64,000 nucleotides of DNA, taken from assembly GCF_032062105.1 (NCBI RefSeq), contig NW_026932503.1, positions 372,001-436,000 on the forward strand, written 5' to 3'. Under the pieces are notes generated by a model. It ran no database searches, was not told the DNA's origin, and saw nothing but the letters and a program-made list of their open reading frames with translations. This DNA comes from Saccostrea cucullata. Its lineage: Eukaryota. Positions 1,035-10,809 of the stretch are shown piece by piece. Each line of letters opens with the position of its first letter. Position 1 is the stretch's first letter. A program made the position numbers and the translations under genes.

Positions 1035-2476
1035 AGACTGACTGACACACTGACGGACAGGTCAAAAACATTATACCTTACGCAACTTGTTGCGTGAGGT
1101 ATAAATATGTTAAGATCAAGCTCTTATTAGGGTACATTCATATTTCTCAAATTTCAGAAACTTGTCCTCTTCTTCAAAATGAATTTGAAAAAAAAAGTAT
1201 CATGGTTATGTTCAACTGATCTAATTTTGAATTTTGTGTTCAAATACTTCATCTTCCATGGAAAACATAACCTTTTATCAATTTATATGGCATAATACTG
1301 GATCTACCACCATATTAACCATAGTCCAGTCTAAACTCATTTACGAGATCTTGACTGTAAATATACCTTAGTCAACTAACTTTATTGGCACTTGTTAGTA
1401 CTTGCCTTATCTATAATTTTCTGGTCTGTGTCTTTGCTGCTTTGTTCTGCTAAAGTTCCAATACTCTCGGTGTATCCTACTGGGGGCTTTAGTTCAATGA
1501 CCTGGACAGCTTGTCTGTCAGATTTTGATCTAAGAAAATTAAGAATATTGACATCTTTTACAAGTTATCTAATTTTAAGATTTTATGAATTTTAAGTCTT
1601 TTTAGAAACCAAATGATTAACGTATTTACATCTAAGGAATCATGTTTATTACTTATTCTAGTTAGAATGATGTATCAGTTAGAACTGTATCTCTGGACAA
1701 GTCCTCACCACACTCAGAAAACGTCCAATAATATATATATTTGCAATGTAGCAAATCGGAGCAGATTCGCTACAAAAATTATTTTGATGAATACAAAAGG
1801 AGTTGCATTGAAATAATTAATAAATTAAGCATAACAACCTTTTGGAGAATGAATATGTCTATTAACCTAAAAAATAACCCAAATAATTAAAAGATGAAAA
1901 TTCAATTTAGTTTCTCAATGTTTTCTCTCGTTTCAAATTTACATGCCATCATATTTACATTCAAAACTTTGTGGATTATTGGTAAATGTACCCTAGTTCA
2001 ATTTCATGTCCATGTCTATTTTGCTTCAATGCCAAAACTTGGAACAAATTCTATCCTTAAACCTGGTCCATAGGATTAGGAAAATATCATTTTATTGATA
2101 GAACTGACATTTTATTCAGTTTATAACTCTTATGGTAGATATACAATTAATACATCTAGCTTACATATTTCACACATCTCAGTAGCATAGGTACCTATCA
2201 ATTCACAACGTATGAAAACCCTCCCATAAAAAAAAAAGCAATAAATTAATGCAGGGGCCTATATATACAATCAGTATAAAAGTCCCCGATCAAGGATGAA
2301 TCTTATAAACAATTTCTTTAAAAACCATAGGTTTTTGTAACAAATAAATAAATGTATAACGTGGAAAATGTTTAACATAATAAGAAAAAACATGTCAGTG
2401 CATAAAATAAGTCACTGAACCTTCCATGTCCAGTAAAATCAATTGACCACTTGTGAAGCTTTCTCTTAGAAGACAT
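1..2476 (-). CDS. EMC4: ER membrane protein complex subunit 4 (TMEM85), 5' part; coding exons 2476-2421, 1529-1406, 107-<1
   Basis: Manual splicing gives [95 protein letters not shown]. This matches the EMC4 signature [14 protein letters not shown]...MAGN.ISIFP.MMV. Exon phases agree, and the second donor is GC. Not in the ORF track. Confidence 0.93.
336..1104 (-). mobile_element. Non-autonomous Helentron-type element (HINE) with ~180-bp tandem array, truncated, in an EMC4 intron
   Basis: Terminal palindrome ttataccttacgcaac-tt-gttgcgtgaggtataa (1071-1104), adjacent (GACT/GACA)n microsatellite, then ~4 copies of a ~180-bp unit (aatttcctg.t.atat.ca at ~378, 563, 741, 921). Confidence 0.8.
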
Positions 2477-2720
2477 GATGATTTTTTCTATCAATATTTT
2501 TTTTTAAACGCCGATCCCGATTTGAAAAAAAAATAGTTTGTTTGATAAATAATTTCATTATGTTGATTTTTTTCCTTTTTCATTTAGTACTTAAATTCTT
2601 AAAACATATTCTTCATTCAATGTACTTCAGAATTTATTACATTTTAATACATTTTAATATAACTTTTTCCATATACTGCTAGGAGGCCTTCACTCTCGAG
2701 AAACCCGTTTTTAGAGAAAC

Positions 2721-9575: not shown

Positions 9576-10809
9576 TTGAAAAATATAAATATATACATGC
9601 ATATATTCAGTAGAAATGTAGAAATGGAACCCGACTTTAAAAAGTATTTTTGATGTTTATGGAATTTATAAAATTAAACTGTTCCTATTTTTTGAATACA
9701 ACCAATTTAACTGAAATACCAATTCTATCTTATTTAAAGAAGAAATATCTTCCCAAACAATATCAATATTATCATGATTATGATCTACGAAACCTCACGT
9801 CTCCGCTCATCGCTATGTATCGATAATAAATGAGCATAACTAAATTTTAATTTAAAAAAGAAAATATGTTAGTTTTAGTGTGTACAAATTATCTGGCACG
9901 TAAATGATGTTTTCCAGTTATTTGTTAAAAAAATTATACTTCATTTTGTTGTTTTAATCGCGATTTTACGAAAACATCGGTGTCCGTTTTTGGTTTTAAC
10001 ATTTACAACAGAGTACTAGATTTACCGCTTTTTGGCAGGTGATACTGCTGATTCAGTAATAAAAAGACAATTTTCCTTAAGTTTTTATGCATTAATGTAT
10101 TCATGTAAGCCTAGAAAATGTGCCTGGGAAGTTTGATTCAATTCTGTGCACCGGTAAAAAAGAAATCGCTAAAAATCCCAAATCCGGGACCGTCGGGAGT
10201 CGGGCGTCGGGAGACGGGAAGACTAGAAATACCGCTTGCCGGAAGTGTGTCGGTCTCCATTTCCCCGCGAGAAAAATGGAGTAGAATGCTGCATCTAAAA
10301 CTTCTGTGAAAGAAACAATTAAGGTTTGTTTACAACTCAAGAAATGTTAAAGAAACAATGTTCAGTTAGGATAATTATCATCTATACACACCAGTTAAGC
10401 AATAATGTGCTGTTGCGTTCATTTTGAGAACGCAGAAATCCCATGCCATGCGCATGATCAAATTATTGAAATTTTAGGAACATTACTTTACAATAAAAAA
10501 CTGTTAATTATTTTATTAAATATCTCTTAATCTTTTGTATAGATATCGGCTTTATATGATATTCTGTTAACTACAAGTAAAGAAACCGACATGATGATCA
10601 TGACCGAGTTTCCTCTGCTATGTTTTGTCAGCAGCATGTTTGCAGTTATTGCTTAGAACCAGATCTGTTTTTTAATTCAGTAAATGATTTATAATAATAT
10701 GCAAACCATATGGTTTAAAACGATTTTCATGTTTGAAGAATTGTGACTGTGTTCTGTCAGTAAATCTTATACAAGGAGTAGGAGTACAAAGAAAAATGAA
10801 TTCTGTTTA

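What the first reader, a model, noticed from the sequence alone, without database searches (positions are those of the whole stretch)
2476..10330. 7.5-kb transposon nest lands on the ETS motif of a head-to-head promoter and leaves each gene a copy
Seen: the empty site reads gagaaaCCGGAAGTGTGtcggtctcc. The 9-bp TSD copies GGAAGTGTG, and the element's terminal CC rebuilds a full CCGGAAGT on the right. EMC4 keeps the left copy ~250 bp from its ATG. The right copy precedes a candidate first exon of the RRM gene (donor AAG/GTTTGT at 10323). Established: CCGGAAGT is typical of bidirectional housekeeping promoters. Inference: the insertion turns one shared promoter into two, which may explain why it is tolerated. 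GG-starting TIRs would regenerate the motif at any such site.
Basis: partly seen in the sequence, partly recalled or inferred. Interest (0 to 1): 0.7.

Follow-up and report, generated by a model that had tools for sequence, protein, structure and literature searches.

The report
Transposon nest splits oyster head-to-head promoter
Three stacked jumping genes pushed two back-to-back oyster genes 7.5 kb apart and left a perfect copy of a common promoter-type motif beside each gene; this is most likely a chance by-product of this transposon type's pull toward gene starts, and whether both copies work is untested.

Summary
The anatomy is confirmed and has one more layer than reported. A 1.46-kb non-autonomous Mutator-like element (9-bp TSD) sits between head-to-head EMC4 and hnRNP-C-like genes of an oyster. 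A 176-bp retroposon fragment (13-bp TSD) and then a 5.85-kb autonomous MULE later entered it. CCGGAAGTG stands on both sides. Spliced contigs confirm the predicted RRM first exon (4 of 4 own-species runs), which reaches to within 6 bases of the right TSD. The special role given to GG termini is small: they add one register of 16, and a 9-bp TSD never destroys the 8-mer. Only 1 of 25 outer-family TSDs holds GGAAG. A pre-specified test found 0 of 12 new sites overlapping the motif. Post hoc, 3 of 47 other sites lie within about 20 bp of it (0.13 expected), one of them a second whole-motif duplication by a GA-ending family. Insertion sites are CpG-richer than flanks. This fits known MULE bias to gene starts. 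The motif occurs 79,915 times in the genome; binding, start sites and the empty allele are not shown. Verdict: real, a tidy natural experiment, known mechanism; the functional promoter split is unproven.

The parts
1..107 (-). EMC4 coding exon 3 (part within window)
   Evidence: Pfam PF06417 EMC4 E=6e-16; joint 107/1406 in 4 of 4 runs
1406..1529 (-). EMC4 coding exon 2
   Evidence: open frame; spliced contigs
2421..2476 (-). EMC4 first coding exon, ATG at 2476
   Evidence: joint 1529/2421 in 2 of 4 own-species runs and 2 of 4 related-organism runs; translation
2477..2719 (.). AT-rich single-copy spacer between EMC4 ATG and the left motif
   Evidence: one match in G000; GC 0.26, CpG o/e 1.38 over 2477-2730
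2720..2728 (+). left CCGGAAGTG (host CC + TSD)
2722..2730 (+). left 9-bp TSD of outer element
2731..10240 (.). outer non-autonomous MULE-type element (1,458 bp without its inserts); TIRs 2731-3120 and 9854-10240
   Evidence: TIRs 82%; 67 exact terminus matches in G000; nearest sister copy 96-99%; length
3574..3586 (+). left 13-bp TSD of middle layer
   Evidence: identical to 9626-9638
3587..9625 (-). middle layer: 176-bp 5'-truncated retroposon fragment (3587-3721 plus 9585-9625), split by the inner MULE
   Evidence: 568 candidates, 40 scored, all 96-100%; 9 of 9 fetched copies share one end, vary at the other, and run on across the inner insertion point; class inferred
3713..3721 (+). left 9-bp TSD of inner MULE (right copy 9576-9584)
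3722..9575 (-). inner autonomous MULE, 5,854 bp, TIRs about 444 bp (73% alike)
   Evidence: 70 exact terminus matches; 99.3-99.7% to an internally deleted sister
4632..7679 (-). transposase frame, 1,015 codons without stop: MULE DDE domain, Ulp1-like and PHD domains
   Evidence: Pfam MULE E=3e-8 above cut-off, Transposase_mut, Peptidase_C48; D-D-CxxH-E motifs located
9626..9638 (+). right 13-bp TSD of middle layer
10239..10247 (+). right CCGGAAGTG (element's terminal CC + TSD)
10241..10249 (+). right 9-bp TSD of outer element
10255..10323 (+). non-coding first exon of hnRNP-C/RALY-like RRM gene (covered at least from 10255; true start not shown)
   Evidence: joint to 13400 in 4 of 4 own-species runs, reach 10255-10285; related organism reaches 10249
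10810..13349 (+). third TIR element in intron 1 (2,540 bp, 9-bp TSD at 10801-10809 and 13350-13358), probably a deleted MULE
   Evidence: PHD hit but no MULE Pfam hit in its three frames, so family is inferred
13400..13792 (+). first coding exon of the RRM gene
   Evidence: Pfam RRM_1 E=7e-10; 98% to a Saccostrea echinata protein; hnRNP-C-like label is recalled

Best explanation
A non-autonomous Mutator-like element inserted between the head-to-head EMC4 and RRM genes of an oyster, and its 9-bp target duplication plus terminal CC left CCGGAAGTG on both sides, likely as a chance by-product of MULE bias toward CpG-rich gene starts. Shown: the TSD, both motif copies, the order of three insertions (outer 1.46 kb, then a 176-bp retroposon piece, then a young 5.85-kb autonomous MULE) and continued splicing of both genes in own-species contigs. 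Inferred: the site was open promoter DNA. The right copy, directly ahead of the RRM first exon, is probably the one that matters most. The left copy, 244 bp from the EMC4 ATG, may help but is not needed to explain tolerance. No ETS-directed targeting and no selection for the duplicate are required.
For: 9-bp TSDs at 25 family sites with varied, AT-rich sequence (GC 0.28); GGAAG in 1 of 25. CpG per base 0.033 within 100 bp of outer-family sites against 0.023 in distal flanks, Wilcoxon P=0.003, n=21 non-window sites. A second outer-family copy (L008) sits with the same motif ahead of a likely short first exon of a DUF4787 gene (exon read by eye). Post hoc, 3 of 47 non-window sites have the 8-mer within about 20 bp against 0.13 expected. 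The same 11-kb stretch holds three TIR elements. One related-organism contig shows a Harbinger end next to the EMC4 ATG. Literature: Mu hotspots at gene 5' ends (bioRxiv 10.64898/2026.05.18.725947, abstract); none of four Mu promoter insertions changed expression (PMC7337890, section 12); mosquito Muta1 makes 8-9-bp TSDs with no sequence preference and favours genic regions (PMC5225508, passages).
Against: The CpG excess is not significant for the inner family (0.024 against 0.018, P=0.19, n=10), and some sites lie in other transposons, which can be CpG-rich. ETS-like 6-8-mers were not enriched within 50 or 100 bp of the 24 other outer sites in any of 8 tests (P 0.11-0.67). No gene was identified near the L121 and L205 sites: 1 of 95 frames hit Pfam, below cut-off, so they are not shown to be promoters. 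Two of 47 other sites overlap the motif exactly (0.05 expected, post hoc P=0.001), which is somewhat more than plain promoter bias comfortably explains. The empty allele was not seen.
Confidence: 0.65

Rival explanations
1. Functional promoter split: one shared ETS site drove both genes, the TSD gave each gene its own working copy, and this is why the insertion survived and could grow to 7.5 kb; the two genes are now regulated independently.
For: Both copies are the strict GABP consensus CCGGAAGTG, one copy of which raised reverse activity in 4 of 6 human promoters (PMC2077898, passages). It is the only such site in 2400-2760, and none lies inside the TIRs. Both genes are spliced in own-species contigs. 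The RRM exon reaches to 6 bases from the TSD.
Against: Perfect TSDs are the norm (23 of 25), so two intact copies show no selection. At L121 one of two duplicated copies has a mismatch. Mu promoter insertions are often neutral without motif copying (PMC7337890). No binding or start-site data exist for this lineage in the papers found.
Confidence: 0.25
2. The TIRs supply outward-reading minimal promoters that keep both genes on, as maize Mu does; the copied motif is incidental.
For: Mu-initiated transcripts in 20 of 33 maize alleles (bioRxiv 10.1101/2023.06.05.543741, abstract). The terminal 100 bp of both TIRs are CpG-rich, o/e 1.4-1.6. One related-organism EMC4 contig runs into a Harbinger end.
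Against: The related organism, which probably lacks this young insertion (element 96-99% to its sister copy; coding exons differ 3.5-4.8% between the organisms), uses the same RRM first exon with the same donor. The TIRs hold no ETS consensus.
Confidence: 0.12
3. These oyster MULE transposases are steered onto ETS sites themselves (by sequence or by an ETS factor), so motif duplication recurs as a strategy.
For: The window, L008 and L121 all have a TSD touching the 8-mer; non-window 2 of 47 against 0.05 expected (post hoc).
Against: Pre-specified test (note): 0 of 12 new inner-family sites overlap, 1 lies 18 bp away; with 0.013 expected the test is small. The three overlaps are in three different registers. 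TSDs show no consensus.
Confidence: 0.07

Closest known systems
Mutator/MULE superfamily (PMC6446971, passages; PMC5225508, passages)
   Same: Long TIRs, 9-bp TSD, DDE transposase with zinc-finger region, non-autonomous derivatives, nesting, insertion near genes. MULEs are present in all mollusc genomes surveyed (PMC10294476, passages).
   Different: Transposase carries Ulp1-like and PHD domains (PHD also listed for Rehavkus in PMC6446971); clade not determined here. Outer and inner elements have different termini, so the inner transposase probably does not move the outer element.
Maize Mu insertions at promoters and 5' ends (PMC7337890 section 12; bioRxiv 10.64898/2026.05.18.725947 abstract; bioRxiv 10.1101/2023.06.05.543741 abstract and passages)
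   Same: Insertion just upstream of a transcribed first exon with the host genes still transcribed.
   Different: Animal host, a head-to-head pair on both sides, and a TSD that copies a candidate factor site.
GABP/ETS bidirectional promoters (PMC2077898, abstract and passages)
   Same: Exact CCGGAAGTG consensus between divergent housekeeping-type genes 328 bp apart (ATG to donor) in the reconstructed empty site.
   Different: Shown for human only; no binding data in oyster, where the 9-mer occurs 40,023 times.
Maize Adh1-3F1124, Mu3 in the TATA box (recalled; not found)
   Same: As recalled, a Mu TSD duplicating a core promoter element.
   Different: Single gene, TATA element, altered expression; could not be checked here.

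Membership tests
MULE superfamily (inner element) | MULE-type DDE transposase | tested here: met
   PF10551 34.4 bits over cut-off 27.6; D, D, CxxH, E motifs in an open 1,015-codon frame
MULE superfamily (inner element) | long TIRs | tested here: met
   about 444 bp, 73% alike
MULE superfamily (inner element) | 8-11-bp TSD of variable sequence | tested here: met
   9-bp TSD here and at 11 paired sites and 11 within-locus pairs in the new set
MULE superfamily (outer element, non-autonomous) | long TIRs and 9-bp variable TSD | tested here: met
   390-bp TIRs; 25 TSD pairs
MULE superfamily (outer element, non-autonomous) | autonomous partner with the same termini | not tested
   longer copies (L059-L062) were fetched but not scanned for a transposase
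Non-LTR retroposon (middle layer) | shared 3' end, variable 5' truncation, TSD of variable length | tested here: met
   13-bp TSD; shared end and varied extent among 9 copies
Non-LTR retroposon (middle layer) | SINE or LINE family identity (Pol III boxes or RT gene) | not tested
   only the 3' fragment was examined
ETS/GABP bidirectional promoter | divergent genes under 1 kb apart | tested here: met
   328 bp ATG to donor in the reconstructed empty site; reconstruction only
ETS/GABP bidirectional promoter | consensus ETS site | tested here: met
   CCGGAAGTG at 2720 and 10239
ETS/GABP bidirectional promoter | mapped start sites on both sides of the motif | tested here: inconclusive
   only contigs available; RRM exon covered from 10255 or 10249; contigs cannot show a start
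ETS/GABP bidirectional promoter | ETS factor binding and two-way activity | not testable with these tools
   needs ChIP or CUT&RUN and reporters
ETS-targeted transposon | TSD enrichment for the motif | tested here: inconclusive
   1 of 25 outer TSDs; 0 of 12 pre-specified; 2 of 47 post hoc

The most novel reading that the evidence does not exclude
Because a 9-bp TSD is longer than the 8-bp ETS site, promoter-seeking MULEs cannot destroy it and often double it. In oysters this repeatedly converts shared head-to-head promoters into two independent ones. The EMC4/RRM pair is a hotspot split twice: by a MULE nest here, and by a Harbinger carrying its own CCGGAAG in a sister species. This gives a natural test of why head-to-head pairs are kept.
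Probability: 0.15. Interest if true: 0.62.

Novelty: new member of a known kind. Interest (0 to 1): 0.33.

Why it matters
If both copies work, this is a one-step route to uncouple a head-to-head gene pair without losing either gene's activator site. Insertion and empty alleles in oysters would then test whether such pairs are conserved for co-regulation or only because the shared promoter is hard to break. If not, it is a clean animal example of MULEs piling up at a gene start, as known from maize. Searches returned no paper on a TSD doubling an ETS site in a divergent promoter; the library lacks most subscription journals, and no supplements were read.

Tried and rejected
Empty allele: both flanks are single-copy in G000. 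No contig joined across the element in 8 runs, which are spliced or RNA-like contigs. A metagenome pattern scan gave 0 hits. None of 33 metagenome RRM loci held EMC4 exons (best E 0.19), so conservation of the head-to-head layout was not established.

Start sites: own-species RRM contigs stop at 10255-10285 and the depth sums leave almost nothing for the adjacent TIR. EMC4 contigs stop at 2449 and 2472 and nothing covers 2473-2670. These are gaps in contig cover and are not used as evidence; they would fit an EMC4 start close to its ATG, about 200 bp from the motif.

The idea that the whole nest moves as a composite was rejected: the 7.4-kb family copy L059 lacks the transposase.

A 12-mer near the EMC4 ATG as a promoter motif: 106 copies; several of the 24 fetched belong to repeat families and none aligns to the window; rejected as uninformative.

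Genes beside L121 and L205: 95 of 100 frames scanned (5 inside the element left out), none above cut-off.

Rows dropped before counts: 9 loci where the outer terminus motif is internal to a longer end or lacks a TSD (L030, L045, L049, L052, L056, L064, L065, L066, L105); 13 unpaired outer ends (none with GGAAG); one duplicate haplotig (L216). Four unpaired ends were paired by eye across loci, and the other unpaired ends showed no overlap. Sampling covers exact-terminus or best-scoring copies only (40 of 231 candidates scored). The protein atlas gave no answer. Earlier findings of the scan: nothing returned.

Full report
Setting. The window lies in a 1.17-Gb animal assembly. The RRM exon is 98% identical to a Saccostrea echinata protein, so the host is an oyster. 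EMC4 runs on the minus strand from the ATG at 2476 (exons 2421-2476, 1406-1529, 1-107; Pfam EMC4 E=6e-16). An RRM gene (hnRNP-C-like; label recalled) runs on the plus strand.

Observation. The 9-bp TSD is at 2722-2730 and 10241-10249. The element 2731-10240 has about 390-bp TIRs, 82% alike. CCGGAAGT lies at 2720 and 10239, the right copy completed by the element's last two bases. The left copy is 244 bp from the EMC4 ATG. The predicted first exon is real: spliced contigs join 10323 to 13400 (GT..AG) in 4 of 4 own-species runs, which are one sample, and in 2 of 4 runs of a related organism. The exon is covered from 10255 (own) and 10249 (related). Contigs cannot show the start itself.

Anatomy. 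The nest has three layers. (1) The outer element is a 1,458-bp non-autonomous TIR element of a family with 67 exact terminus matches; its nearest sister is 96-99% alike. (2) A 176-bp repeat fragment with a 13-bp TSD (3574-3586, 9626-9638) entered its middle. It has 568 candidate copies that share one end and vary at the other, as retroposons do. (3) A 5,854-bp MULE with 444-bp TIRs and its own 9-bp TSD entered that fragment. It has an open 1,015-codon frame with MULE, Ulp1-like and PHD domains and is 99.3-99.7% alike to a deleted sister, so it is very young. The genes were therefore first separated by about 1.5 kb and later by 7.5 kb. A further TIR element with a 9-bp TSD lies in RRM intron 1 (10810-13349).

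Is the motif hit special? Among 25 TSD-paired outer-family sites only the window's TSD holds GGAAG; TSD GC is 0.28. ETS-like words were not enriched within 50 or 100 bp of the other 24 sites (8 tests, P 0.11-0.67). CpG was: 0.033 against 0.023 per base, P=0.003, n=21; for the inner family P=0.19, n=10. Enumeration of all 32 TSD placements that touch the 8-mer shows that none destroys it; GG ends double it in 8, GA ends in 6. GG therefore adds one register per orientation. The 8-mer occurs 79,915 times (one per 14.6 kb, 3.5 times its reversed control) and the 9-mer 40,023 times, often in clusters, so a match alone does not mark a promoter.

Evidence the other way. At L008 an outer-family TSD touches the 8-mer directly ahead of a likely short first exon of a DUF4787 gene (exon read by eye). 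At L121 an inner-family element has the whole 8-mer as its TSD, one copy with a mismatch: a second duplication, by a GA-ending family. I then fixed a test in advance on inner-family termini not yet seen: 0 of 12 new sites overlap the motif and one has it 18 bp away. Pooled and post hoc, 2 of 47 non-window sites overlap (0.05 expected, P=0.001) and 3 of 47 lie within about 20 bp (0.13 expected, P=0.0004). No gene was identified near L121 or L205. I read this as a bias to CpG-rich, promoter-like DNA where the motif is dense. True motif targeting is not excluded but is unsupported by the pre-specified test, which is small.

Mechanism. A MULE transposase made a 9-bp staggered cut across the motif (shown by the TSD). 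The site was probably chosen because it is open gene-start DNA (inferred from the CpG excess, three TIR elements within 11 kb, and maize and mosquito data: bioRxiv 10.64898/2026.05.18.725947 abstract and start of introduction; PMC5225508 passages; PMC6446971 passages). The right copy, just ahead of RRM exon 1, is the likelier working element. CCGGAAGTG is the GABP consensus that raised reverse activity in 4 of 6 human promoters (PMC2077898, abstract and passages), and ETS motifs are enriched in annelid unmethylated promoters (PMC11292947, passage). Two searches found no oyster data. Tolerance does not need the duplicate: none of four maize Mu promoter insertions changed expression (PMC7337890, abstract and section 12), and Mu TIRs can supply outward promoters (bioRxiv 10.1101/2023.06.05.543741, abstract and passages). 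Two intact copies show no selection, since 23 of 25 TSD pairs are perfect.

Sister-species hint. In one run of the related organism (X6) an EMC4 contig leaves the window one base upstream of the ATG. Its 30 further letters equal the left end of a PIF/Harbinger-type element (DDE_Tnp_4 and Myb/SANT frames; 2 copies in G000). In G000 that end carries CCGGAAG just inside. This suggests an independent insertion at the same promoter, but it rests on one contig of one run.

Limits. No empty allele was found. That the related organism lacks the nest is inferred from its coding divergence (3.5-4.8%) exceeding the element's distance to its sister. No supplements were read. The maize Adh1 TATA-box case is recalled only (searches gave nothing). 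Searches found no report of a TSD doubling an ETS site between divergent genes, within a library that lacks most subscription journals. The scan's earlier findings returned nothing.

Verdict. The feature is real and well described; the mechanism is ordinary MULE insertion near gene starts. The promoter-split reading is plausible (about 0.25) and directly testable, but not shown. Novelty: new member of a known kind. Interest 0.33.

Noticed in passing
window 2477 (run X6); L115:512-8185; L116:430: A related organism's EMC4 contig runs from one base upstream of the ATG into the left end of a PIF/Harbinger-type element present twice in G000; that end carries CCGGAAG. Possible independent insertion in the same promoter; one contig only. 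The window has a 3-base direct repeat at this point (2475-2480).
   Followed up: partly
L121:3635-4679 (G000 C7000): Inner-family 1.03-kb element whose 9-bp TSD is itself an ETS site (one copy intact, one with a mismatch), with another 8-mer 20 bp away; no gene identified nearby.
   Followed up: partly
L008 / L118:155-290 (G000 C21446): Outer-family element directly ahead of an ETS 8-mer and a likely non-coding first exon of a DUF4787 gene; same geometry as the window without duplication.
   Followed up: partly
L205:2275-3591: Inner-family element 18 bp from CCGGAAGTG, with further CpG-rich words on the other side.
   Followed up: partly
L060, L066: Mutual nesting: an outer-family copy sits in an inner-family-like TIR (L060), and an inner-family copy sits in outer-family-like TIR sequence (L066).
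   Followed up: no
window 10810-13349: Third TIR element with 9-bp TSD in RRM intron 1, with broken frames ending in a PHD finger; a related copy appears in contigs of run X3.
   Followed up: partly
window 343-1087: Four tandem copies of a roughly 180-bp repeat in EMC4 intron 2, abundant in RNA-like contigs; resembles the satellite-bearing repeats common in bivalves (recalled).
   Followed up: no
G000 genome-wide: CCGGAAGTG occurs 40,023 times, 13 times its reversed control, often in dense clusters on small contigs, suggesting repeats that carry the motif.
   Followed up: no
window 62883: Third CCGGAAGT of the window, in a repeat-like stretch downstream of a helicase-like exon rather than at an evident gene start.
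   Followed up: no
L052/L064, L049/L065, L045/L056/L066: The outer terminus motif also occurs a short way inside longer, different element ends; two of these have CGGAAGT just outside it.
   Followed up: no
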